From a virus (lineage: Duplodnaviria > Heunggongvirae > Uroviricota > Caudoviricetes): 28,003 bases of DNA. Below are positions 1,268-24,578 of this stretch, one piece after another. Made by a program: the position numbers and the translations under genes. Location: IMG/VR virus record IMGVR_UViG_3300029068_000004. One strand, written 5' to 3'. How positions within the stretch are numbered: the first letter of the stretch is position 1; every line of letters starts with the position of its first letter. The notes under the pieces are model-generated. The model was not told the origin of the DNA and searched no databases. It was given only the letters and a program-made list of their open reading frames with translations.

Positions 1268-4200
1268 TCAGCTAATCGTGATGCCTGCAGTGGCTTTCTT
1301 CATCACCACAACCAGCAAATCGCTGATACTTGCTGTGGGATACCAGTTATTTACCAGCCATGCTGACACCGAAAACTCCAGTGTCATGTGACCGTGACCG
1401 GCAGGCATATCAATAACACCACTGTAAATCAGCGTATTATCCAGCGCGGTACGGTTATAAATTTCAGCACCGTTTTTCCGTACTATCAGGCGGCATGACG
1501 AATAAATATCGTTATTCTCCCGCTCATGTTTAGCGCCGCTGAATGCCACCGCCGGAATAACAATCTGCCGGTCAAACGGCTGATCGTCATAAACCCTGAC
1601 GGTAATGGTCCCTGATGGCCACCGCTCCGGTGCCCGGGAGTCCCGTGGGAAAGCCTTACCCACTGTTTTGACAATATCGCCTTCAATCTGGTTGGCTGAC
1701 AGTTTCCCTTTAATCTGACAGTTCTCATTTATCGTAACGTTGTTGAGCGTCCCGGAGTTCGCATTCACACTGCCACTGATATCTGCATTTTTAGCGGTCA
1801 GCTTTCCGTCCGGTGTCAGGGAAAATGCCGGAGGATTACCGCCGCTGGTAATGGTCGGAGCCGTCAGGCGTTTCAGGAACACGTCGTTCATGAATATCTG
1901 ATCGCCCTGACCAACAAACATTGGTCTTGTGTTGCCATTAGACGGATCAATAAACGCGATACGGTTAGCGGCAACCAGAAACTGGCTCAGTTTGCCTTCC
2001 TCCGTGTCCTCCATGCTGAGGCCAATACCCGCGACATAATGTTTGCCGTCTTTGGTCTGCTCAATTTTGACGCCCCACATGGCATTCCACTTATCGTTGG
2101 CGTCCTTCCACTCTTTCGAAAACTGCTCCAGTTTGCTGGCGTTATCTTCCGTCAGCTCAAAGTTTTCCAGTAGCTCCTTGCCGAGATGCGTTTTATTGAT
2201 CAACCCTTTATAAAAATTCAGATAACCTTCCGCATCATCGCTCGCCCGACCGACGGCCTCCACAAATGCCGATTTACCAACGGTATTCACGCTGCGGATA
2301 TAAAAGTAATAATCATAACCCGGCTTAATATTGCTACTGGCAGCTATCCAGTACAGCGCCGTGCCAAGATAGCGGGCTGTGGTTTCAACCTGCCTGATAT
2401 CAGCAATCCGCTTTTCCGAGAACCAGAACTCAAACTGCACCGTCGGGTCATATACAGCCAGTTTCGGGACCGCTGTTATCTGAAAATACCCTGGTATCAG
2501 TTCAATAGTGACAGGCGCTGCAGGTGCGGCAATCCGGAACGATACCGATGCCGGATCGCCCTGCTGACCCCACGCATTTGCCGCCCGGACCGTCAGCGTG
2601 TAACGCCCCAGCGCCAGCTGCCTGAAGCGGTATGTGGTTTCCGTCGTCCGGACCGTGCTGACCAGCCGCTCACTGCCGTCATCCGCTGTTACGGTCAGAC
2701 GGAGCAGGAAGCTCACGCCCTTCACCACCTTCGGCGTGTCCCAGCGGGCCAGTACCTGATATTCCCCGCTGTCTGCGGTGACTTCGGCGGTCAGATGCTG
2801 CACTGCTGGCGGCGTGACACCATTCACCGTGCCGCTCTGGTCACCGTCAAAGTGCGCCCCGTTATCCACGATGGCCTCTTTCTCCGGCACATGCTGCACG
2901 GCAGTGATGGCATACGTGCCGTCGTCGTTCTCACGGATACTCACGCAGCGGAACAGGCGCTGGCGCAACGTCGGCAGCTTCAGTCCCCATACGCTGTATT
3001 CAGCAACACCGTCAGGAACACGGCTCACTTTTACCTTCACGCCGTCGGTGACGGACTGAACCTCCACGCTGACCGGATTGCCACTTCCGTCAACCAGGCT
3101 TATCAGCGTGGTACCGGAGGATGGCAGAGTGATTTCACGGTCGAGCGTCAGCGTCCGGGTCTGGCTGTTTACCGCCAGCACGCGCCCGCCGGTGCGGATA
3201 CCGGCATAGTCATCATCGCAGATTTCAATGACATCGCCCGGTACATGGCGAAGCCCTTCGGCACCCACGCTGAAGTCCACGGTCTGCGTTTCCAGCAGTT
3301 CTGTTTTAATCAGCCACAGCCCGGCGCGGTGTGCCTGCCCCCGGCTGGTACAGCCAAAAGCATCCATCTTCGTGACGTTACGACCGTAACGGGCAATGGC
3401 CTGTGTGTCCTCCACAAGCTCTGTCGCCGTCTCCCAGCCGTTATTCGGGTCAATCCAGTTCACCTCAACGGCATTATGGCGGTCCTTCAGGGCGCTGAAG
3501 CTGTAGCGGAACGGCGCACCATCATCCGGCATCACCACATTACTGCGGTTATAGGTCCACACCTTATCCGACGGTCGGTCCTGCACGAACGTCAGCGTCT
3601 GCCCGTTCCATACCGGCATACAGCGCATCGCCGAGCAGAAATCACTGAGCACATCCCACGCCTTGCGCTGTGTGGTCAGGTACGCATTACAGGTGATGCG
3701 CGGCTCCGTGCCGCCAAAACCGTCCGGCACCGACTGATCGCAATGCTGGCCGATGACATACAGCGCCCATTTGTCCACATCCGCCGCACCAAGACGTTTC
3801 CCCATGCCGTAGCGCGGATGGGTCAGCATATCCCACAGACACCAGGCCATGTTGTTGCTGTATGCTGGCTTAAACGTTCCGTCCCAGATACCGCTGTATT
3901 GCCGCGTCTGCGGGTTATAGTTCGACGGCACCTGCAGAATGCGCCCGCGCAGATGATAATTACGGCTCACCTGCTGGCTGCCGAACTGCTCCGAATCCAC
4001 CTGCACGCCGACCAGTGCCGTGTTCGGGTAGCCCTGTTTCACATCGATGATTTCGGTGTATGACGACCAGAGCGTTTTGTTCTGCAGCTGGTCTGTGGTG
4101 CTGTCCGGCGTCATCCTGCGCATCCGGATATTGAACGGGCGCGGCGGCAGGTTACCCACCACCACCGAGGCCAGATACTGCGAGGTGGTTTTGCCCTTAA

Positions 4201-18562: not shown

Positions 18563-19870
18563 TTAAATCCGAAGTGATGTGACTCTTCCGATCGGTTTGA
18601 CAATAGGGAATTGCTTAACGATGAAATAACCTCCGGCATCATTCGGGTGATCATTGCCAGATTTTTTATCAGGCTCCCCCTTCTCATCCCAGACCTGTTG
18701 CTCCAGAGATTCGGCATATAACGGGCAACGCTTCACATTAACTTTATAGCGACGCTCACCATTGGCATTGCAGAACATTGCATTCATTGAGTTAACGCGA
18801 TCTTTTACTGGCGGGTTCGAGCTGTTCACCACAACGTTAAAACCAGCCTGCTTAAGCTGGGCTATATCCGTCGTACTTGCGTTACTTGATTTTCTGGAAT
18901 CCCCGGAAGCATCTGGATAAATATAAATTTCCCTCACTTTCCGGTAATCATTCCCATCATACAGCCAGAAGCGTTCTTTAATGATGCGGATCATATCCGG
19001 CGTATCGTAGGCATTGATGATTTCAGTTACCGCACATGGAAGCCCCAAACGCAGCACATGGACGATTCCCGCCATCTTTCCAACGTTAAAATCCATCCCA
19101 ATATAAATCGGCTCCCCTGGCTGCTCCACTTCTTCGCAATTATTCAGTTTCCGGTCAAACTGATGGTAAACAGTACCACTTGTCAGGTTAGTAAACTGTC
19201 CTCGAAGATAGGCTTTAATCAGCTCTGGAGGGTATGATTCAAGAAGCGAAGGAATGTAATCTGCTGGCAGGTTCTTTTCATTATCGAAAGTAGATGCCTG
19301 CACCAGACCATACAGTGAGGCCAGCTCTGTTTTTTCACGCACGGCTTTAACAAACTGCTCGTAGACAAATTTGAATCCTTCCGGCGTGGTTGTAACGTCA
19401 ATACCGTTGCGAAGTCCATCAATCTTATAACGCATACGTGCAATTATCTTGCGCCACGCCGTTCTGGCTTTTTCCTTCGGCAAAATGTCCAGTTCATCCA
19501 CCAACGCATTACCAATTTTGAAACCGACGATCGTTTGTGGCTTCTCCATCGATCTGCAGATAGTGGTTCCCCGATACTGGCGTCCGTAATAAAAGTGAAC
19601 CTCTTTATTTCCCTCATTAATTTTTACGTTCAATCCCCAGTCAGCAGCAACTTCTTCCACTGTAGGGTAAAAAATATCGCGAATTTGGGGATACGTTGGC
19701 GCAAAATATCCCTGATTTATACCTGGATGCTCCCAAATCCCCTTGCATATGCCGCCACACCCAACCCATGTTTTGCCCGAGCCAAAACCAGCAATATAGG
19801 CTTTAAATTTATGGGGCATTGAAAGAAATCGCGCCTGAGGCACATTAAGCGTCGGAGAGATCATCTTCAT
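18563..19870 (-). CDS. Terminase large subunit
   Basis: Walker A P-loop AGFGSGKT near the N-terminus, acidic motifs, size about 435 aa; probable ATG at 19870 (the track start at 19873 is GTG). Confidence 0.9.
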   Translation of the reverse strand: MKMISPTLNVPQARFLSMPHKFKAYIAGFGSGKTWVGCGGICKGIWEHPGINQGYFAPTYPQIRDIFYPTVEEVAADWGLNVKINEGNKEVHFYYGRQYRGTTICRSMEKPQTIVGFKIGNALVDELDILPKEKARTAWRKIIARMRYKIDGLRNGIDVTTTPEGFKFVYEQFVKAVREKTELASLYGLVQASTFDNEKNLPADYIPSLLESYPPELIKAYLRGQFTNLTSGTVYHQFDRKLNNCEEVEQPGEPIYIGMDFNVGKMAGIVHVLRLGLPCAVTEIINAYDTPDMIRIIKERFWLYDGNDYRKVREIYIYPDASGDSRKSSNASTTDIAQLKQAGFNVVVNSSNPPVKDRVNSMNAMFCNANGERRYKVNVKRCPLYAESLEQQVWDEKGEPDKKSGNDHPNDAGGYFIVKQFPIVKPIGRVTSLRI

Positions 19871-20939
19871 CACTCCTTACTCTGGCATCAACCACATTAA
19901 TATTGATCGCCACAGGCTGGGGATGTTCATTATCCTCCACCGTTTCGATCTCTTTGCGCAGCTTCTGGTTTTCTATTCTGCGCCGTTCAATTTCCAGTTC
20001 CTGTAGCCGCTTATCTGCACATAATGCCCCGCCAGCAGAAAGCAAACGCAACAATTCACGCCGGGCGGCAGCCTTATCCTCCAGCAGGATCTCAACACCG
20101 TATTTTCCGAGCTTTGACCCTGCATATAATTGCCGCGCATCCCCATCAAGCAGTGTGGTATCAGCCATATAAAGCTGTCCCGTTCCCTCACCGCAGCACT
20201 TCGGGCAATCCGGATTGGGTATGGCGTTATCAACAAAGCCGAGGCCTCCATATTCCGGCTCGGATTTACCATCTCTGGAGGCCTGTGCCGCAGCCTTATC
20301 GAATTCTGCAATATCACGCCACTGGTAGAGATGATTCTCGCCCCAGCAATAACGGCAGTTAACACGGCGAAATTGTGCCAACTGATTGGGGTCGGCCTGG
20401 ACAATGGCCATCAACTGGCTCACCAGTAAATCCAGGTCTGCGGTATAGCGTTTCTGGTACTGATTGCGGAAGTAGCTGATAGCACGATAAACCCTGGCAT
20501 TTCTAAGCATACGACTGGCGTTGCTGTTAGCTGTCGCACCTTGCCCCTCATAACCGGCTAGTCGGTACGCCTCTGTCGGCTTTTTACCCTGAGCAACAAG
20601 CATCGCAAACTTAGCCTGCTGGTCAGAAATGCCGAATTCATCGGGACAGAACGAAAATTCCTCCGCGTCGCCCTCATTCAGGCCCGCATCGAATACTGGC
20701 TTTTTTTCCTGAGATTTTTCGTTCCGCTTTTGTGCAGTCTGCGCAGATTTTTTCTGCGCACTTTTTTGCGCAGTTTTGCGCATTTCTGTCTGCGCATTTT
20801 TCGGAGGTTTTTTGATGTAACGACGGGCTGTTGCGTAATTCAGTCCCCTTGCTTCACACCATGCCACCGGAGATATACCGGAGCGGGTGTATTCAGCAAT
20901 ATACTCCTGCTGCAACGCCCCCCAGTCCGGTCTGCTCAT
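19845..20939 (-). CDS. Terminase small subunit (Terminase_2-like core with N-terminal HTH and C-terminal Cys-rich region)
   Basis: Residues around ...AKFAMLVAQGKKPTEAYRLAGYEGQGATANSNASRMLRNARV... fit the small-terminase pattern from memory; N-terminal HTH-like segment; CRYCW...CPKCC cysteine cluster; directly upstream of the large terminase. Confidence 0.7.
   Translation of the reverse strand: MSRPDWGALQQEYIAEYTRSGISPVAWCEARGLNYATARRYIKKPPKNAQTEMRKTAQKSAQKKSAQTAQKRNEKSQEKKPVFDAGLNEGDAEEFSFCPDEFGISDQQAKFAMLVAQGKKPTEAYRLAGYEGQGATANSNASRMLRNARVYRAISYFRNQYQKRYTADLDLLVSQLMAIVQADPNQLAQFRRVNCRYCWGENHLYQWRDIAEFDKAAAQASRDGKSEPEYGGLGFVDNAIPNPDCPKCCGEGTGQLYMADTTLLDGDARQLYAGSKLGKYGVEILLEDKAAARRELLRLLSAGGALCADKRLQELEIERRRIENQKLRKEIETVEDNEHPQPVAININVVDARVRSDEDDLSDA
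20731..20796. repeat. Array of palindromic TGCGCA hexamers (5 perfect + 1 TGTGCA) with T/A tracts, inside the 5' part of the small terminase gene
   Basis: TGTGCA at 20731; TGCGCA at 20740, 20755, 20767, 20777 and 20791; spacing 10-15 bp. Encodes the low-complexity peptide ...KTAQKSAQKKSAQTAQK... Confidence 0.8.
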
Positions 20940-20942
20940 CAG

Positions 20943-21194
20943 TTAGTCCTGATTTTTATCCACCCTGAGTAGTTCGCGCAGAGCAAAGGCATCCCCTTTT
21001 CTGGCAAGCTTAAACAATGCCGCTCGTAACTCGGCTTCACCTTTCGCTCTGCCCTTACGGATGGCCGCATAAAAATCTGTCATTGCTTCCCGATTTTCTT
21101 TCAGTCGGTTCAGATCAACATCCAGAACGTCAGCGATTTGTTGTGCAGTCATCCGGCACGCTGCCAGAGACTCGACTTTCGAATACGGAATCAT
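20943..21194 (-). CDS. Small HTH DNA-binding protein (function unknown)
   Basis: 83-aa ORF with an HTH-like segment MTAQQIADVLDVDLNRLKEN; its stop lies 3 nt upstream of the small terminase ATG. Confidence 0.45.
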   Translation of the reverse strand: MIPYSKVESLAACRMTAQQIADVLDVDLNRLKENREAMTDFYAAIRKGRAKGEAELRAALFKLARKGDAFALRELLRVDKNQD

Positions 21195-22062
21195 TTGTCA
21201 CCCCTATTGATATGCAGGGTGTCTTCTTCCTGTATTTTTCGTGAAGGATTTTTACTGCAGCGTTGTTCCAGGTGACCTGATGGTGAATGCGTTTATGGCT
21301 GGCACCCATCAGTGAGATTTTTACGCACGACGGCGCATACATGACGGAGTAAAAACTTTTAACGTAGGTTCCGGAATCCAGATACAGCTCGGTCATTCCG
21401 CCGCTGTTTTTCTGCGTCTGTTTCTGCCCTAACTGGACAGCACCGATCGTCATAAACAATTCACCACAGCGACCGAGATTCGTGTACGTATTCACATCCT
21501 CGTTAATGCGCCCCATGAATGAGAACGGTCGATCAACCGAACAGATAAAGCTGTTCATTGCCTTGCGTTTCACCCACGAAGCATGGCCGCCATTGTCACC
21601 AAGAAAATCCCCTCCCTGCGACATAGCGATGGAAAGAGCAGGTATTGATTCGTAGTACGCCAGCATTTCAGAAAGGATCGCATCCAGTTTCCTTATCGGA
21701 AAATAGGCCTGGTCATAGTTGCGATCCACCCGAAACTGGAACTCGTGATAATCATCATCGAGCTGAATGAAGTATTTACACCCGACCAGTTTTGCCTGGT
21801 CGAAACAGGCATTACGGGCGTAAAAAATTGAGCGGCGGTCACAGAAATTATCGGCTTCGTCAAAACGACTGGCGATATCGGCTTTGGAAAACACCAGCAC
21901 CTGTTCACCAAATTCAGCCATGTACTGATGCCGTGTCTTATCTTCATCATCAACAACGATAAAAATTTTCCCGGTATAGCCAGCACGACGCAACGTCCGG
22001 TAAGTCAGAACTTTGTCCGGTCGCCCGTGAGTCAGAATAAAGGCGCAAAAATCATCACGCAT
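21130..22062 (-). CDS. Hypothetical enzyme with GT-A (family-2-like) glycosyltransferase sequence pattern
   Basis: 310-aa ORF with ATG at 22062. Sequence pattern CAFILTHGRP ... KIFIVVDDED ... YARNACFDQAKLVGCKYFIQLDDDY resembles the GT-A N-terminal strand plus ARN...G.Y...LD.DD (DXD) signature; no C-terminal transmembrane segment. Confidence 0.4.
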   Translation of the reverse strand: MRDDFCAFILTHGRPDKVLTYRTLRRAGYTGKIFIVVDDEDKTRHQYMAEFGEQVLVFSKADIASRFDEADNFCDRRSIFYARNACFDQAKLVGCKYFIQLDDDYHEFQFRVDRNYDQAYFPIRKLDAILSEMLAYYESIPALSIAMSQGGDFLGDNGGHASWVKRKAMNSFICSVDRPFSFMGRINEDVNTYTNLGRCGELFMTIGAVQLGQKQTQKNSGGMTELYLDSGTYVKSFYSVMYAPSCVKISLMGASHKRIHHQVTWNNAAVKILHEKYRKKTPCISIGVTNDSVFESRVSGSVPDDCTTNR

Positions 22063-22846
22063 ATTCCTCCTCCTCACCACCATGCATGATCTCCACCATG
22101 CGCTGCGTCATCCGGACAAATCCATTTTCAATAGCCTGCTGATAATCAATGATCACCAGCGCCGACTCCTCGAAAAAACACTGAATTTCAGCGGGGGCGT
22201 GAGCGTAATAGTCCGCAATTCTGCTGAAATTAAACACCGTGTGACGTTCTGCCGCACACAGGAGGAATTTCTCAATATCAGGCTCAAGGGACGCCGAACG
22301 TATCCGGCTGATCAGCTCCTGAGTTTTCGTATCGTCGTACAGTTCACTGATATCCGGTTTACCGCCCGACGGCTCATAAACAGGCGTATCAATTTTCGTC
22401 GTATACGGCTCCTCCTCATTTCCTGTACCGGGCAAAACATCCGTCAACAGTTCATCAATTTCTGTCGGGATGAAGCCTGTCAGGGAGACATCAAAATCAG
22501 CATTGATTAGGTCCGACAGCTCCATCCGCAACAGATCTTCATCCCAGCCAGCATTCATCGGCAGGCGATTATCTGCCAGGCGGTACGCCTTTTTCTGCTC
22601 ATCCGTCAGGCCAGACAGAACAATGACCGGAACAGAATCCATTTTGAGCATTTCAGCCGCCATAACACGACCGTGACCCGCAATAATTTCGCCCTTTTCG
22701 TCAATCAGCACCGGATTAGTCCAGCCGAATTGCTTAATACTTTCTACCAGTTGTGCCACCTGCTCAGGGCTGTGCGTCCTGGCGTTGTGCGCATACGGTG
22801 ACAATTCTTGTAATGGGCGATAGACTATCTTTAATTTCTCGCTCAT
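22055..22846 (-). CDS. ParB-like (ParB/Srx N-terminal domain) protein with a C-terminal domain of unknown function
   Basis: N-terminus ...LSPYAHNARTHSPEQVAQLVESIKQFGWTNPVLIDEKGEIIAGHGRVMAAEMLKMDSVPVIVL matches the ParB N-domain pattern including GHxR. Ends with the acidic tail GGEEEEYA, whose codons (GAGGAGGAGGAA) form the Shine-Dalgarno for the downstream gene. Confidence 0.7.
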   Translation of the reverse strand: MSEKLKIVYRPLQELSPYAHNARTHSPEQVAQLVESIKQFGWTNPVLIDEKGEIIAGHGRVMAAEMLKMDSVPVIVLSGLTDEQKKAYRLADNRLPMNAGWDEDLLRMELSDLINADFDVSLTGFIPTEIDELLTDVLPGTGNEEEPYTTKIDTPVYEPSGGKPDISELYDDTKTQELISRIRSASLEPDIEKFLLCAAERHTVFNFSRIADYYAHAPAEIQCFFEESALVIIDYQQAIENGFVRMTQRMVEIMHGGEEEEYA

Positions 22847-22873: not shown

Positions 22874-22897
22874 CCCCAGCAGCCAGTGCTACTGGGG
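22874..22897 (-). terminator. Terminator-like hairpin between trkG and the ParB-like gene
   Basis: Minus strand CCCCAG-(12-nt loop)-CUGGGG followed by UGCGUUUUAUUC. Confidence 0.4.
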
Positions 22898-22983
22898 ACG
22901 GAGGTATTGCTGGTAAAGTTAGGTATTGGATCAATGAGTGAGTCAACATAATATTAAACTCACAATTATAAATCAGCCATATA

Positions 22984-24441
22984 TTAGGAGCGCCAAAAAA
23001 AACCTGAAAACAATATAATAACAGGATAAATTTCAAGGCGACCAAGAATCATAGCTATGCACATTAAACATTTTGCAATGTCATTAAGCACTCCGAATGA
23101 CGATGCAGTAGCCCCAAAACCTAATCCCATATTATTAATACATGCAGCCACTGTTGCAAATGATGTAAGAAAATCATATCCCATACCATTTAACACCAGT
23201 ATAAAAAACACCGTGAAGAGAGTATAAAGAAAAAAGAAACTCCATACAGACCTCATTACACGATCTGTAACTATCTTCCCTCCTACATTTACACTCAACA
23301 ACGCTCTGGGATGAGAAAGCTGATTTATCTCGTGTTTGCTTTGTTTGAAAAGTATAAGAAATCGAAGTGACTTAATTCCACCACAAGTTGAACCTATACA
23401 TCCCCCAAAGAAACTTGACAACAGCAAAAACACTATCGTGTGCGTGGGCCAACTTGCATAATCCTGCGTAGCTAAACCATTATCAGTGAGCATGGAGCTG
23501 GCAAGAAAAAACGAATGAATAAAACTTCCATGCAAGTCATACATACCTATATGCCAGACCTGGAAAGAGGTAACAATGATCACCCCTAAGGCTATTAACA
23601 GAAAGAAACGAAGTTCAATATCTCTGATTAAAGGTTTTATCGTTTTCCTGCTAATAACAATATACCAAAGAGTGAAGTTGAAAGCCGATAGCAGGGAAAA
23701 AGAACCAGCCACCAGCTCAACCAAATAGTTATTAAAATATCCGATACTCTCGCTATGAGTTGAGAAACCACCAAGCGAAACTGTGGAAATCCCGTGACAA
23801 ATAGCATCAAACAAAGGCATTCCTGCAAGTCTATAACAGACAATACAAGCAATACCTAATAAAGAATAAGTTATCCACAGTGTCCGTGACGTATCGGCCA
23901 GGCGGGGAGTGAGTTTGTCATCCTTAAATGGCCCCGGCATTTCTGACTGATAAAGCTTTGCACCACCAATACCCAATAATGGCAATACAGCAACCGCCAG
24001 AACAATAACTCCTAAACCACCTATAAAATTTAACTGTGACCGATAGTACAAATATGCCCGAGGTAATGAACTAACATCATCAATTACAGTTGCTCCTGTT
24101 GTTGTTATTCCAGAAACCCCTTCAAACAGAGCATCAATGAACGTTAAATTAAGTTCTGAGTCAATCCATAAAGGGAATGCACTAATAACAGAAAACAAAA
24201 TCCAAAACATTACAATTATAATAAACCCATCACGGGTACGTAATTGAATGCCAGATTTCTTAGTTGTATACCACGCTCCGCCACCAATGCAAAAAAATAT
24301 AACGAAAGTTATAAAGAAAACAAACAGGCTTTTTTCTTTATAAAACAATGCTACAACCATTGGTGGCAACATTGAAAGACTATAGAGCCAAACCAGGAAC
24401 CCACACATATGAGTAACAACTCTTACATGAGATGTATTCAT
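22984..24441 (-). CDS. trkG: TrkH/TrkG-family potassium uptake protein (moron)
   Basis: Polytopic membrane protein; from ATG 24441 it reads MNTSHVRVVTHMCGFLVWLYSL..., as E. coli Rac-prophage TrkG (485 aa) from memory. A TTG at 24459 with an AAGGTGG Shine-Dalgarno is an alternative start. Visibly AT-rich versus neighbours. Confidence 0.9.
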   Translation of the reverse strand: MNTSHVRVVTHMCGFLVWLYSLSMLPPMVVALFYKEKSLFVFFITFVIFFCIGGGAWYTTKKSGIQLRTRDGFIIIVMFWILFSVISAFPLWIDSELNLTFIDALFEGVSGITTTGATVIDDVSSLPRAYLYYRSQLNFIGGLGVIVLAVAVLPLLGIGGAKLYQSEMPGPFKDDKLTPRLADTSRTLWITYSLLGIACIVCYRLAGMPLFDAICHGISTVSLGGFSTHSESIGYFNNYLVELVAGSFSLLSAFNFTLWYIVISRKTIKPLIRDIELRFFLLIALGVIIVTSFQVWHIGMYDLHGSFIHSFFLASSMLTDNGLATQDYASWPTHTIVFLLLSSFFGGCIGSTCGGIKSLRFLILFKQSKHEINQLSHPRALLSVNVGGKIVTDRVMRSVWSFFFLYTLFTVFFILVLNGMGYDFLTSFATVAACINNMGLGFGATASSFGVLNDIAKCLMCIAMILGRLEIYPVIILFSGFFWRS

Positions 24442-24578
24442 ATCTAAATATTCTTTCAATTATAACCACCTTGCTGCAATATTATGATTATACTGTATAA
24501 AATTTAACTCCTCTTAGATCTTACTTCACTGTTCCTTATGAAACAATCATCAAAATGAATCATATTGTAGTTAAGATT

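What the first reader, a model, noticed from the sequence alone, without database searches (positions are those of the whole stretch)
21130..22846. Translationally coupled ParB-like + GT-A-like gene pair immediately upstream of the terminase genes: candidate DNA modification or anti-restriction module
The 263-aa protein has a clear ParB/Srx-type N-terminal domain (AGHGR motif) but a C-terminal half I cannot assign. Its last codons (GAG GAG GAG GAA) form the Shine-Dalgarno for the next gene, whose ATG (22062) overlaps the ParB stop, so the two are co-translated. The downstream 310-aa protein shows the GT-A pattern (ARN...G.Y...LD.DD) and has no membrane anchor, so it is not a GtrB-type seroconversion enzyme. 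In phages, ParB-N domains are usually fused or adjacent to DNA-modifying enzymes, and the slot just before the packaging genes is where DNA is modified before encapsidation. A soluble ParB-like/GT-A pair there could glycosylate or otherwise modify DNA or nucleotides. I do not recognise this pair as a characterised system. A fragment of it appears to survive in K-12 Rac as ynaK/ydaY.
Basis: partly seen in the sequence, partly recalled or inferred. Interest (0 to 1): 0.7.

Follow-up and report, generated by a model that had tools for sequence, protein, structure and literature searches.

The report
ParB-partnered phage DNA-type glycosyltransferase pair
Just before the DNA-packaging genes of this intact Rac-like E. 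coli prophage sit two overlapping genes: a sugar-transferring enzyme of the family that phages use to put sugars on their DNA, and a ParB-like helper protein with a previously undescribed partner domain; the same pair recurs in viruses of bacteria and archaea that have no known way of making the base such enzymes normally act on, so its target is unknown and can be tested in E. coli.

Summary
On the minus strand, a 263-aa ParB-like gene (22055-22846) overlaps by 8 nt a 310-aa gene (21130-22062), directly 5' of orf83, terS and terL. The window is an intact Rac-like prophage.

The 310-aa protein belongs to Pfam TAGT (PF20691, E 1.5e-34). This is the GT-A family of the T2/T6 second-sugar DNA glucosyltransferase and of the TET-associated DNA glycosyltransferases. 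It keeps the R...DDD...ED motifs.

The partner has a ParB/Srx N-domain, which elsewhere is found fused to phage DNA methyltransferases. It also has an unannotated C-domain with 1188 clusters at 50% identity.

In two independent samples, 98% of GT loci carry this C-domain gene immediately upstream (143/146 viral contigs, 65/66 cellular genomes). The hosts range from E. coli to Lactobacillus, Nocardia, Vibrio and a haloarchaeal virus. One locus fuses all three domains.

Where the ParB N-domain is missing, the C-domain protein starts with a clamp-binding-like xLF motif, and a DnaN-like clamp gene often follows the GT.

My best reading is a late-expressed, DNA-tethered glycosyltransferase system. 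The acceptor is unknown, because these phages encode no hydroxymethylase or TET. K-12 ynaK is a stump of the ParB-like gene; ydaY is an unrelated tail-gene remnant. I found no published characterisation.

The parts
22055..22846 (-). Full-length YnaK-type ParB-like partner protein, 263 aa. It consists of a ParB/Srx N-domain, a linker and a C-domain, and is strongly acidic (K+R 23, D+E 48).
   Evidence: ORF. Pfam ParB_N and phrog_620 matches. 31-sequence alignment A2. Fold matches to ParB-CDP, PadC and Noc. Charge count.
22427..22846 (-). ParB/Srx-type N-domain plus helical extension (residues 1-140). Conserved residues include N21-A-R23, G57-H-G-R60 and D92-N93. This is the same module that sits at the N-terminus of phage ParB-methyltransferase fusions.
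   Evidence: phrog_498 'DNA methyltransferase' 1.2e-50 over residues 3-141. PADLOC MTase_II 2.5e-38 over residues 10-144. Many tblastn hits lie under genes annotated as DNA methylases. Invariant columns.
22370..22405 (-). Invariant linker peptide Y148-T-T-K-I-D-T-P-V-Y-E-P159, with consensus Y-[TS]-x5-P-x-Y-E-P. It lies in a region predicted to be disordered. Its role is unknown.
   Evidence: Invariant from E. coli to the haloarchaeal virus HHTV-2 and in the C-only proteins. AF2 pLDDT is below 50 for residues 137-170.
22058..22426 (-). C-domain (residues 141-263). It is helical, matches no Pfam or PDB relative, and ends in an acidic tail. It is the element that always accompanies this GT clade.
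   Evidence: No Pfam hit beyond ParB_N. The best PDB profile match is E 0.078, which is chance level. 1188 representative proteins at E<=1e-3. Adjacent to the GT in 143/146 and 65/66 loci. It occurs as a free-standing ~130-aa protein in Vibrio phage phiKT1024 and in 17 IMG/VR loci.
22055..22075 (-). Coupling junction. It comprises the GAGGAGGAGGAA Shine-Dalgarno-like run (22064-22075), the GT start ATG (22060-22062) and the ParB-like stop TGA (22055-22057).
   Evidence: Sequence read. Overlapping stop and start codons are also seen in HHTV-2, NTR1, phi jlb1 and c5. The median gap across the IMG/VR loci is -17 nt.
21130..22062 (-). TAGT-family GT-A glycosyltransferase, 310 aa. NCBI names it 'GREB1-related protein'.
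   Evidence: PF20691 1.5e-34, 120 bits against a 27.5-bit cut-off. phrog_842 5e-104. AF2 core pLDDT above 90. Foldseek matches GT-A enzymes in the PDB and phage TAGT models in BFVD (E 9e-25, TM 0.71-0.78).
21751..21759 (-). D102-D103-D104, the DxD metal and nucleotide-sugar motif. Together with R14 and E188-D189 it forms the R...DDD...ED signature.
   Evidence: Invariant in alignments A1 and A3-A5. The same motif set is described for phage DNA GT-A enzymes and for JGT in bioRxiv 10.1101/2023.12.21.572611.
21193..21375 (-). Clade-specific C-terminal region of the GT (about residues 230-290: GTYVKSFYSVMYAPSCVK...RIHHQVTWNNAAVKI). It lies outside the Pfam model. It may be the docking or substrate-binding element.
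   Evidence: Invariant G231, T232, Y233, K235, F237, Y238, P244, R258, H260, H261 and W265. Conserved in the archaeal, Gram-positive and Vibrio homologues. Absent from the unpartnered TAGT paralogue of L092. pLDDT below 50.
20943..21194 (-). orf83, a small terS-like (phrog_309) protein whose start overlaps the 3' end of the GT. It travels with the pair in enterobacterial phages. Whether it belongs to the module is uncertain.
   Evidence: PGAP calls a shorter 69-aa version.
22874..22897 (-). Terminator-like hairpin (10-bp stem, 7 G-C pairs, T tail). It lies after the trkG moron and 27 nt before the ParB-like ATG. No promoter-like site lies in between, so the pair probably depends on antiterminated late transcription.
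   Evidence: sequence.
18563..20939 (-). Context only: terS (19845..20939) and terL (18563..19873), the genes the pair precedes.
   Evidence: Terminase_2 and Terminase_6N/6C matches. Synteny is kept across diverged phages. Terminase is the first large downstream gene in about 80 of 102 diverse loci.

Best explanation
The two genes encode a two-component, DNA-directed glycosyltransferase system made late in lytic growth.

Shown:
- The 310-aa protein is a catalytically intact TAGT-family GT-A enzyme.
- Its gene is almost always preceded, with overlapping stop and start codons, by a gene for the newly delineated C-domain.
- That C-domain is usually fused to a ParB/Srx NTP-binding N-domain of the kind also fused to phage DNA methyltransferases.

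Inferred:
- The C-domain binds the GT. Its invariant Y-T-x5-P-x-Y-E-P peptide contributes either to the active site or to substrate handling.
- The ParB N-domain acts as an NTP-gated dimerising clamp or activator that holds the enzyme on double-stranded DNA. This would parallel the ParB-like activators of phage thymine dioxygenases.
- In phages whose C-domain protein lacks the ParB N-domain, an N-terminal clamp-binding-like motif tethers it to a phage DnaN-like sliding clamp instead.
- The enzyme then transfers a sugar from a host nucleotide-sugar onto replicated phage DNA before packaging. This would alter how host nucleases, and possibly the terminase, see that DNA.

Unknown: which atom receives the sugar. 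No hydroxymethyl-pyrimidine pathway is present.
For: Family and fold of the GT:
- PF20691 at 1.5e-34 and phrog_842 at 5e-104.
- GT-A fold, with phage TAGT models as the best viral matches.
- R14, D102-104 and E188/D189 are invariant. This is the motif set of the DNA GT-A enzymes and JGT.
- The characterised TAGT of T2/T6 glucosylates glucosyl-5hmC in DNA.

Partnership between the GT and the C-domain:
- The C-domain gene lies immediately upstream on the same strand in 143 of 146 non-redundant IMG/VR loci and in 65 of 66 GTDB genome loci.
- In the phage database the C-domain hits (28 records) fall in the same phage groups as the close GT hits. The remaining GT hits are decayed copies or identities of 28% or less.
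- The pair is present in the archaeal virus HHTV-2, Nocardia phage NTR1, Lactobacillus phages and 191-kb Vibrio phages.
- One 522-aa ORF fuses ParB-N, the C-domain and the GT.

Link to DNA:
- The ParB N-domain matches the N-terminus of DNA methyltransferase fusions and ParB-CDP structures.
- 14 of 18 proteins scored as C-only carry an N-terminal xLF motif.
- Among the clamp-linked C-only proteins, 8 of 9 carry it. The background is 6 of 125, Fisher p = 1e-8. A DnaN-like gene directly follows the GT in these loci.
- Locus L092 reads PolA, TAGT paralogue, C-domain protein, TAGT, clamp.
- In Vibrio phage phiKT1024 the pair lies among primase, nuclease, ligase and helicase genes.

Precedent: a ParB-like protein with a nucleotide-binding domain, a linker and a C-terminal domain, but no DNA-binding domain, is required for a phage T-dioxygenase to act on dsDNA (PMC13229309).

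Timing: the pair lies between the lysis genes and terS, with a terminator and no promoter-like site upstream.
Against: - No TET/5mYOX enzyme or dUMP/dCMP hydroxymethylase is annotated in the Rac-like prophage or in the complete genomes of phi jlb1 and c5. Every characterised enzyme of this family needs a hydroxymethyl base or a sugar hydroxyl.
- One TAGT-family member, GREB1, O-GlcNAcylates a protein.
- The ParB-like protein is very acidic and has no HTH, so it is unlikely to bind DNA by itself.
- The NTP-motif arginine is missing in NTR1. In the dioxygenase system, NTP-site mutations had little effect.
- The clamp-binding motif and the complex are inferred from sequence only. AF2 confidence is poor for the C-domain and for the GT C-terminus.
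- The pair is decaying in some L. delbrueckii phages, so it is dispensable there.
Confidence: 0.5

Rival explanations
1. The enzyme glycosylates a protein. The GT puts a sugar on a Ser, Thr or Tyr of a protein. One candidate is its own partner, at the invariant Y-T-x5-P-x-Y-E-P peptide, in the manner of glycogenin. Others are proteins that sit on DNA: replisome, terminase or portal components, host nucleoid proteins or defence proteins. In this reading the ParB or clamp tether only brings the enzyme to them.
For: GREB1, a TAGT-family enzyme, O-GlcNAcylates ER-alpha (PMC7968844). The invariant linker peptide is rich in hydroxyl residues and predicted to be disordered. Glycogenin and peptide S-glycosyltransferases are among the fold matches. 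No hydroxymethylated base is available as a DNA acceptor.
Against: The closest sequence and structure relatives are phage TAGTs, not protein glycosyltransferases. The invariant peptide could equally be structural. In C-only loci the pair sits in replication modules, next to a second TAGT, as in sequential DNA glycan pathways. No target protein is conserved across hosts from haloarchaea to E. coli, other than the partner itself.
Confidence: 0.2
2. The enzyme glycosylates a small molecule or nucleotide. The pair would modify a free nucleotide, a nucleotide-derived immune signal or another metabolite. The ParB/Srx domain would act as an NTP-using phosphotransferase, as in Srx or SerK, rather than as a DNA clamp.
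For: The ParB/Srx fold includes ATP-dependent phosphotransferases (Srx and SerK matches). ParB-fold proteins bind ATP, GTP or CTP (PMC12704722). The partner is acidic and has no DNA-binding domain.
Against: The N-domain is dispensable in C-only variants and is replaced by a clamp-binding-like motif, which points to DNA and not to a metabolite. It is closest to methyltransferase-fused ParB domains. The GT gave no PADLOC match, and this search found no known anti-defence family resembling the pair.
Confidence: 0.1
3. The pair is a packaging accessory. The ParB-like protein would mark or recognise the packaging start region, or assist the terminase. The GT would play a structural or regulatory role.
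For: The pair lies directly 5' of terS/terL in most loci, and terminase is the first large downstream gene in about 80 of 102. In phage c5 it lies between the cos site and the terminase genes. In NTR1 it directly abuts terL, with no annotated terS in between.
Against: The downstream terminases belong to at least four different families (Terminase_6N/3, TerL_ATPase, GpA, T7-type). This argues for conserved position or timing, not a specific protein contact. The catalytic residues of the GT are invariant. C-only loci are in replication modules, not packaging modules. Most phages with these terminase types lack the pair.
Confidence: 0.08
4. The pair has no role in the phage life cycle in E. coli. 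It would be either a decaying passenger or a lysogenic-conversion enzyme acting on a cell-surface glycan.
For: The module is truncated in K-12 and in many other E. coli genomes and is decaying in some Lactobacillus phages. It lies next to the trkG moron.
Against: Both proteins are under strong purifying selection, with dozens of invariant residues at 40-60% identity across phyla. There is no membrane anchor or signal sequence. A terminator and no promoter-like site lie upstream, so expression in the lysogen is unlikely. There is no Gtr-type partner.
Confidence: 0.04

Closest known systems
T2/T6 beta-glucosyl-HMC-alpha-glucosyltransferase, the type TAGT (PF20691)
   Same: Same Pfam family and GT-A fold, with a DxD motif. 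It is a phage enzyme that acts on DNA after replication.
   Different: The T-even enzyme adds a second glucose to DNA that is already glucosylated at 5hmC, and it has no ParB or C-domain partner. The Aeromonas T4-like homologues annotated with that name are only 22-24% identical. The Rac-like phage makes no 5hmC. The present clade has an extra invariant C-terminal region.
5mYOX/TET-associated phage GT-A enzymes and the trypanosome base-J glucosyltransferase JGT (Pyle et al. 2024, bioRxiv 10.1101/2023.12.21.572611)
   Same: Same R...DDD...ED(Y/F) active-site signature and GT-A fold. That paper notes gene neighbourhoods that include ParB-like and terminase genes.
   Different: Those enzymes sit next to a methyltransferase plus dioxygenase, or next to a thymidylate-synthase-like hydroxymethylase, which creates the acceptor. 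None is present here. The C-domain partner was not described.
ParB-dependent phage thymine dioxygenases, e.g. 5mYOX176 with ParB176 (O'Toole et al. 2026, PMC13229309)
   Same: A ParB-like protein made of a nucleotide-binding N-domain, a short helical segment, a disordered linker and a C-terminal domain, with no HTH. It is encoded next to a DNA-modifying enzyme and is needed for that enzyme to act on dsDNA. The architecture matches the AF2 model here.
   Different: The partner enzyme there is an Fe/2OG dioxygenase, not a glycosyltransferase. Homology between the two C-terminal domains was not tested because I did not have the ParB176 sequence. Dependence of the GT on its partner is inferred, not shown.
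ParB-N-fused phage DNA methyltransferases (phrog_498, PADLOC MTase_II)
   Same: The N-domain of the present protein matches their N-terminal ~140 residues at 1e-38 to 1e-50. My inspection of the hit coordinates suggests many of these genes also lie ahead of the packaging genes.
   Different: There the catalytic domain is fused and transfers a methyl group from SAM. Here the catalytic subunit is a separate GT, joined through the C-domain.
T4 alpha-glucosyltransferase working with the gp45 sliding clamp
   Same: A DNA glucosyltransferase coupled to the replisome clamp, as stated in PMC13216743. The C-only variants of the present system appear to use a clamp-binding motif and an adjacent DnaN-like clamp.
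   Different: T4 alpha-GT has a GT-B fold and is unrelated in sequence. The clamp link here is predicted from a short motif and from gene order only. The E. coli pair uses a ParB N-domain instead.
GREB1 (human; TAGT-type GT domain)
   Same: Same GT family. NCBI names the E. coli protein 'GREB1-related protein'.
   Different: GREB1 is a 1949-aa cytoplasmic protein reported to O-GlcNAcylate ER-alpha. There is no ParB partner and no link to DNA.

Membership tests
TAGT (PF20691) DNA-type GT-A glycosyltransferases | Match to the family profile above the curated threshold | tested here: met
   120.2 bits against a 27.5-bit cut-off, E 1.5e-34, covering profile positions 4-205 of 205. phrog_842 at 5e-104.
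TAGT (PF20691) DNA-type GT-A glycosyltransferases | GT-A (Rossmann-like) fold | tested here: met
   AF2 core pLDDT above 90. Foldseek matches SpsA, glycogenin, WrtF and ColGalT1 at E 3e-5 to 1e-3. Phage TAGT models match at E 9e-25, TM 0.71-0.78.
TAGT (PF20691) DNA-type GT-A glycosyltransferases | Catalytic signature R...DDD...ED(Y/F) | tested here: met
   R14, D102-D103-D104 and E188-D189-V190 are invariant or nearly so in 32 close and 9 distant homologues.
TAGT (PF20691) DNA-type GT-A glycosyltransferases | Co-encoded source of the acceptor: TET/5mYOX with a methyltransferase, a dU/dCMP hydroxymethylase, or a first-sugar GT | tested here: not met
   None is annotated in the Rac-like prophage or in the complete genomes of phi jlb1 and c5. 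This is a feature of the characterised pathways, not of the protein family as Pfam defines it.
TAGT (PF20691) DNA-type GT-A glycosyltransferases | Transfers a sugar to DNA | not testable with these tools
   This needs nucleoside LC-MS or an in vitro assay.
ParB/Srx (ParB-CTPase) fold proteins | Profile match and fold of the N-terminal domain | tested here: met
   PF02195 at 28.9 bits against a 26.3-bit cut-off. Foldseek matches ParB-CDP 6sdk at E 5e-7, and also PadC, Noc, MxParB, KorB, Srx and SerK.
ParB/Srx (ParB-CTPase) fold proteins | Conserved NTP-binding boxes (Box I N/Q-P-R, Box II G-x-x-R, Box III D/E-N) | tested here: inconclusive
   N21-A-R23, G57-H-G-R60 and D92-N93 are invariant among close homologues. 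The Box II arginine is absent in NTR1. No residue-level structural superposition or binding test was done.
Canonical partition ParB (ParABS) | HTH DNA-binding domain, ParA partner and parS site | tested here: not met
   There is no HTH or ParB C-terminal dimerisation Pfam hit. TIGR00180 scores 38 bits against a 58-bit cut-off. No parA gene is nearby. This is not a partition protein, despite the database name 'chromosome partitioning protein'.
ParB-activated DNA-modifying enzyme systems (5mYOX/ParB type) | ParB-like protein with NBD, linker and CTD, without a DNA-binding domain, encoded next to the enzyme | tested here: met
   Architecture from AF2 and alignments. Adjacency in 98% of loci. Description of the reference system.
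ParB-activated DNA-modifying enzyme systems (5mYOX/ParB type) | Enzyme activity on dsDNA depends on the ParB-like partner | not testable with these tools
   This needs co-expression and in vitro reconstitution.
Gtr-type seroconversion glycosyltransferases (GtrB) | Membrane-anchored GT2 with GtrA and GtrC partners | tested here: not met
   No hydrophobic segment (highest 19-aa hydropathy 1.08). No Gtr family hit. No gtrA or gtrC neighbour.

The most novel reading that the evidence does not exclude
The ParB/C-domain-TAGT pair puts a sugar directly on ordinary DNA, without any prior hydroxymethylation. The acceptor could be a canonical base, the backbone or a DNA end. That chemistry is not known for any DNA glycosyltransferase. 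The C-domain, with its invariant Tyr/Pro peptide, would be the element that makes it possible. ParB clamps and beta clamps would be interchangeable tracks for the enzyme. If so, about 16% of complete E. coli genomes (867 of 5426 with at least 80% of the module region), and prophages across many phyla and in haloarchaeal viruses, would encode an unrecognised DNA modification.
Probability: 0.2. Interest if true: 0.9.

Novelty: new variant of a known kind. Interest (0 to 1): 0.62.

Why it matters
Two recent papers left a question open. Pyle et al. found that about 65% of phage GT contigs have no neighbouring base-modification enzyme. The 2026 NAR study found that 288 of 753 GT-encoding phages carry a 'solitary' TAGT of undefined function.

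This locus shows that one large clade of those solitary enzymes is not solitary. It has an obligate partner domain that no database names. That partner is attached either to a ParB NTPase module or, apparently, to the replicative sliding clamp.

This extends the newly found principle of ParB-activated DNA-modifying enzymes from dioxygenases to glycosyltransferases. It also points to a DNA (or DNA-associated) glycosylation that needs no hydroxymethylated base.

The system occurs naturally in an inducible-looking E. coli prophage, and K-12 carries only an 87-aa stump of the ParB-like gene and no GT. It can therefore be tested directly by expression, nucleoside mass spectrometry and plating on restricting hosts. 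A positive result would matter for phage-host arms-race biology, for reading unexplained nanopore or SMRT signals in prophage DNA, and as a possible new tool enzyme for labelling DNA.

Tried and rejected
- Literature on this pair. Searches for 'TET-associated glycosyltransferase', PF20691, TAGT plus ParB, ynaK/ydaY, GREB1 plus bacteriophage, and ParB plus glycosyltransferase plus anti-restriction found nothing on the pair itself. Iyer et al. 2013 (NAR gkt573), which defined TAGT and may mention ParB linkage, is not held. Any statement about its content would be from memory, so I make none.
- NCBIfam gave nothing useful for either protein. PADLOC gave nothing for the GT.
- The C-domain has no relative in the PDB by profile search. 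The best hit was RNase E S1 at E 0.078, which I rejected as chance. Its AF2 model is too poor for fold comparison (pLDDT 30-78). The afdb50 library was unavailable, so structural closeness to JGT and GREB1 was not tested.
- ydaY as a GT remnant: rejected.
- The 317-aa start at 22083: rejected in favour of 22062.
- Clamp-binding motif among the top 150 C-domain representatives. The short proteins there are mostly truncated fragments and only 4 of 15 have the motif. The motif is therefore a property of the free-standing C-only proteins seen in the IMG/VR and GTDB loci, not of the whole family.
- Canonical partition ParB: rejected (no HTH, no ParA).
- GtrB-type seroconversion: rejected.
- A first Pfam run on 120 neighbour proteins exceeded the size limit and was repeated with 102.

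Full report
**What is in the window**

The finding lies on the minus strand. A 263-aa ORF (22055..22846) is followed by a 310-aa ORF (21130..22062). The ATG of the second (22062-22060) sits inside the last codons of the first (...GAG GAG GAG GAA TAT GCG TGA). This gives an 8-nt overlap preceded by a GAGGAGG run.

Downstream come an 83-aa ORF (20943..21194) that overlaps the 3' end of the GT, then TerS (19845..20939, Terminase_2) and TerL (18563..19873, Terminase_6N/6C). Upstream are trkG (22984..24459) and the lysis genes.

The window is an intact Rac-like lambdoid prophage. The 2.1-kb region is found in 1610 of 5426 complete E. coli genomes, and 867 of them hold at least 80% of it. NCBI calls the two proteins 'ynaK: ParB/Srx family N-terminal domain-containing protein' and 'hypothetical' or 'GREB1-related protein'. 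Ten deposited phage records carry the region at 99.6-99.7% identity.

A strong terminator-like hairpin (22897..22874) closes trkG, 27 nt before the ParB-like ATG. No promoter-like site lies between them. The pair therefore most likely depends on antiterminated late transcription.

**The K-12 comparison**

K-12 Rac matches the window up to about codon 85 of the ParB-like gene. It then jumps to window position ~11032. ynaK (87 aa) is therefore a stump of the ParB N-domain. ydaY is 98% identical to the C-terminal 116 residues of window ORF 10681..11142(-), a tail-region gene, and has no similarity to the GT.

**The glycosyltransferase**

- The 310-aa protein matches Pfam PF20691, 'TET-Associated Glycosyltransferase' (TAGT), at E 1.5e-34 (120 bits against a cut-off of 27.5). 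It matches phrog_842, 'beta-glucosyl-HMC-alpha-glucosyltransferase', at 5e-104.
- The AF2 model has a confident core (pLDDT above 90 over most of residues 1-150 and 170-215).
- The model matches GT-A enzymes in the PDB, including SpsA, glycogenin, WrtF and ColGalT1.
- In BFVD its best matches are phage TAGT-domain proteins (E 9e-25, TM 0.71-0.78).
- R14, D102-D103-D104 and E188-D189 are invariant. This is the R...DDD...ED(Y/F) signature that Pyle et al. describe for phage DNA GT-A enzymes and for the trypanosome base-J glucosyltransferase.
- There is no hydrophobic segment.
- The family's characterised phage member is the T2/T6 enzyme that adds a second glucose to glucosyl-5hmC in DNA.
- One eukaryotic member, GREB1, is reported to O-GlcNAcylate a protein.
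- The present clade has about 60 further invariant residues C-terminal to the Pfam domain (GTYxKSFY...PSCVK...RIHH..W). AF2 cannot place them. They are missing from an unpartnered TAGT paralogue.

**The partner protein**

Residues 1-95 form a ParB/Srx domain. Pfam scores it 28.9 bits, and Foldseek matches ParB-CDP, PadC, Noc, MxParB, KorB, Srx and SerK. With its helical extension to about residue 140, this domain matches two methyltransferase profiles:
- phrog_498 ('DNA methyltransferase') N-terminus at 1.2e-50;
- PADLOC MTase_II N-terminus at 2.5e-38.

Many tblastn hits in phage genomes lie under genes annotated as DNA methylases.

It is not a partition ParB. There is no HTH and no ParA, and TIGR00180 scores below its threshold.

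After a linker predicted to be disordered comes a helical C-domain (residues ~170-255) with an acidic tail. The linker carries an invariant Y148-T-x-K-x-x-x-P-x-Y-E-P159 peptide. The C-domain has no Pfam family and no PDB relative. Even so, a library of 1.84 billion representatives contains 1188 proteins that match it at E<=1e-3. Most of these are 250-300 aa with the domain at the C-terminus, and a minority are shorter. The whole protein is strongly acidic (K+R 23, D+E 48).

**The pair is a conserved module**

In enterobacterial viral contigs with GT identity from 58% to 94%, the order ParB-N, C-domain, GT, orf83, terS is kept even where terS and terL have diverged to about 40%.

In the phage database the C-domain hits only 28 records and the GT hits 42. 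All 28 C-domain records are in phage groups that also have a close GT hit:
- the E. coli Rac-like phages;
- six 191-195-kb Vibrio phages;
- Lactobacillus delbrueckii and L. gasseri phages;
- Nocardia phage NTR1;
- a gut phage;
- the haloarchaeal virus HHTV-2.

The extra GT hits are decayed copies (LL-Ku, Ld17, Ld25A), Porphyromonas phages at 28% identity, or Aeromonas phages at 22-24% identity.

In phiLdb, c5, phi jlb1 and NTR1 the pair again lies directly before the terminase genes. In c5 it lies between the cos site and the terminase genes. In HHTV-2 it lies 3 kb upstream of terL.

I then scanned IMG/VR with alignments led by distant GTs and scored all ORFs with my own HMMs. Of 146 non-redundant GT loci with enough upstream sequence, 143 had a C-domain ORF immediately upstream on the same strand. 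The median gap was -17 nt, measured from longest-ORF starts. Their architectures were:
- 124 with the ParB N-domain plus the C-domain;
- 18 scored as C-domain only, one of which (L264) is really a divergent ParB;
- 1 fusing all three domains in a single 522-aa ORF (L138).

An independent scan of one genome per GTDB species gave 65 of 66. The taxa ranged from Bacteroidota, Clostridia and Veillonella to Acidobacteriota, Planctomycetota, Saccharibacteria and an uncultured archaeon.

**Two contexts**

For 126 of 130 loci, a same-strand ORF of at least 350 aa follows the GT, at a median distance of 500 nt. Pfam on 102 of these ORFs gave the following counts (one ORF can match more than one family):

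| Pfam family | Members matching |
|---|---|
| Terminase_6N | 46 |
| Terminase_3 | 45 |
| TerL_ATPase | 6 |
| GpA | 1 |
| T7-type RNaseH-like domain | 8 |
| DNA_pol3_beta | 10 |

BLAST clustering gave terminase-like groups of 63, 10 and 6, and a clamp group of 9. So about 80% of loci have terminase next, from at least four terminase families.

The clamp-linked loci are the ones whose partner protein is the C-domain alone (~130 aa). Those proteins begin with a short motif resembling the beta-clamp-binding pentapeptide: QIDLF, QFNLF, QFSLF, SQLF, MPLF, MALF, KSLF. The counts are:
- 8 of 9 among clamp-linked loci;
- 5 of 7 among the other true C-only proteins;
- 6 of 125 in the first 30 residues of ParB-containing partners.

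Comparing the first and last of these gives Fisher p = 1e-8.

The same N-termini recur in the GTDB set. Locus L092 reads PolA, a small ORF, a divergent TAGT, the C-only protein, the TAGT and a DnaN-like clamp. In Vibrio phage phiKT1024 the C-only protein and the GT lie among primase, nuclease, ligase and helicase genes.

**Interpretation**

The C-domain is the constant partner of this GT clade. What varies is the module attached to it. That module is either a ParB NTPase domain of the type fused to DNA methyltransferases, or an apparent sliding-clamp tether. Both are ways of keeping an enzyme on DNA. This is the strongest argument that the system works on DNA or on something bound to DNA.

It fits a direct precedent. 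O'Toole et al. (2026) showed that a ParB-like protein with the same layout is required for a phage thymine dioxygenase to act on dsDNA. That layout is a nucleotide-binding domain, a short helical segment, a disordered linker and a C-terminal domain, with no DNA-binding domain. It also echoes the reported coupling of T4 alpha-GT to the replisome.

I therefore favour a late-expressed, DNA-tethered glycosyltransferase system.
- Shown: the family, the fold, the intact catalytic motifs, and the near-obligate, translationally coupled pairing.
- Inferred: complex formation, the ParB or clamp tethering, and DNA as the substrate.

**What does not fit**

- Every characterised enzyme of this kind needs a 5-hydroxymethylpyrimidine or an existing sugar.
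- No TET/5mYOX enzyme or hydroxymethylase is annotated in the Rac-like prophage, nor in the complete 38-kb and 32-kb genomes of phi jlb1 and c5.
- Pyle et al. considered such GT contigs less likely to modify DNA.
- GREB1 shows that the family can act on proteins.
- The invariant Tyr/Thr-rich peptide in the partner could itself be an acceptor.
- The partner's acidity argues against direct DNA binding.
- The Box II arginine is not universal.
- The pair decays in some Lactobacillus phages.

For these reasons I give the main explanation 0.5, protein glycosylation 0.2, small-molecule chemistry 0.1, a packaging role 0.08, and no phage function 0.04.

**Novelty**

The GT family and the idea of ParB-assisted DNA modification are both known. 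The literature already flags 'solitary' TAGTs (288 of 753 GT-encoding phages) as having undefined function.

Within what I could search, the following are new:
- the delineation of the C-domain as the obligate partner;
- its alternative ParB or clamp attachments;
- the three-domain fusion;
- the breadth of the module across bacterial and archaeal viruses;
- the absence of any acceptor-making enzyme.

I rate it a new variant of a known kind, with interest 0.62. It is directly testable in E. coli K-12, which retains only an 87-aa stump of the ParB-like gene.

The most novel reading is direct glycosylation of ordinary DNA. It is not excluded by my evidence. I give it a probability of about 0.2.

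Noticed in passing
window 10681-11142 (-) and 22593-22846 (-); L001 (K-12) 2878-3481: The K-12 Rac 'genes' ynaK and ydaY flank an ~11.5-kb deletion junction. ynaK is the first ~85 codons of the ParB-like gene. ydaY is the C-terminal 116 codons of a 153-aa tail-region ORF. The deletion removed the GT, the terminase, head and most tail genes.
   Followed up: yes
L092 4616-5011, L100 4607-5011, L237 4604-5014, L130 534-932 and others; L333, L340, L349, L374: Free-standing ~130-aa C-domain proteins begin with a beta-clamp-binding-like motif (QIDLF, QFNLF, SQLF, MPLF...). In 9-10 loci a DnaN-like clamp gene directly follows the GT. This suggests a sliding-clamp tether takes the place of the ParB N-domain.
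   Followed up: partly
L138 4281-5849: A single 522-aa ORF fuses the ParB-like N-domain, the C-domain and the TAGT. It is followed by a small ORF and a terminase-like gene. This is a Rosetta-stone fusion, although an assembly frameshift cannot be excluded.
   Followed up: partly
L092 3798-4616 and 5001-5852: Two TAGT-family genes lie in tandem in a replication module (PolA upstream, clamp downstream). The upstream paralogue has LFDD in place of DDD and lacks the clade-specific C-terminal region. The arrangement resembles sequential DNA-glycan pathways.
   Followed up: partly
window 20943-21194 (-): orf83 is an 83-aa terS-like protein (phrog_309) whose start overlaps the last 65 nt of the GT. 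It accompanies the pair in all enterobacterial loci examined but not in more distant ones. The 20 extra C-terminal residues of the E. coli GT exist only because of this overlap.
   Followed up: partly
window 22874-24459 (-): trkG (potassium transporter) is inserted as a moron between the lysis genes and the ParB-like gene. It ends in a strong terminator-like hairpin (22897..22874), so downstream late genes must be read through it.
   Followed up: partly
L082 (phiLdb) 848-1713; phage records LL-Ku, Ld17, Ld25A: The pair is decaying in several Lactobacillus delbrueckii group-b phages. The GT is split into two ORFs in phiLdb and reduced to fragments in LL-Ku, Ld17 and Ld25A, while c5 and PMBT4 keep it intact.
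   Followed up: partly
L084 (Nocardia phage NTR1) 3-3408: In NTR1 the pair abuts terL directly, with no annotated small terminase in between. Its ParB N-domain lacks the Box II arginine (AGNHTV instead of AGHGR).
   Followed up: no
K-12 ynaK (L001 2878-3141): A 2026 overexpression screen reported that the 87-aa K-12 YnaK stump raised the MICs of six antibiotics (PMC12924614). The mechanism is unknown, and any relation to the intact protein's function is unclear.
   Followed up: no
L298 (Virgibacillus sp. CBA3643 plasmid pCBA3643-01): One GT homologue lies on a 50-kb record annotated as a plasmid, possibly a phage-plasmid. The GTDB scan also found hits in Saccharibacteria, Fonsibacter and an uncultured archaeon.
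   Followed up: no
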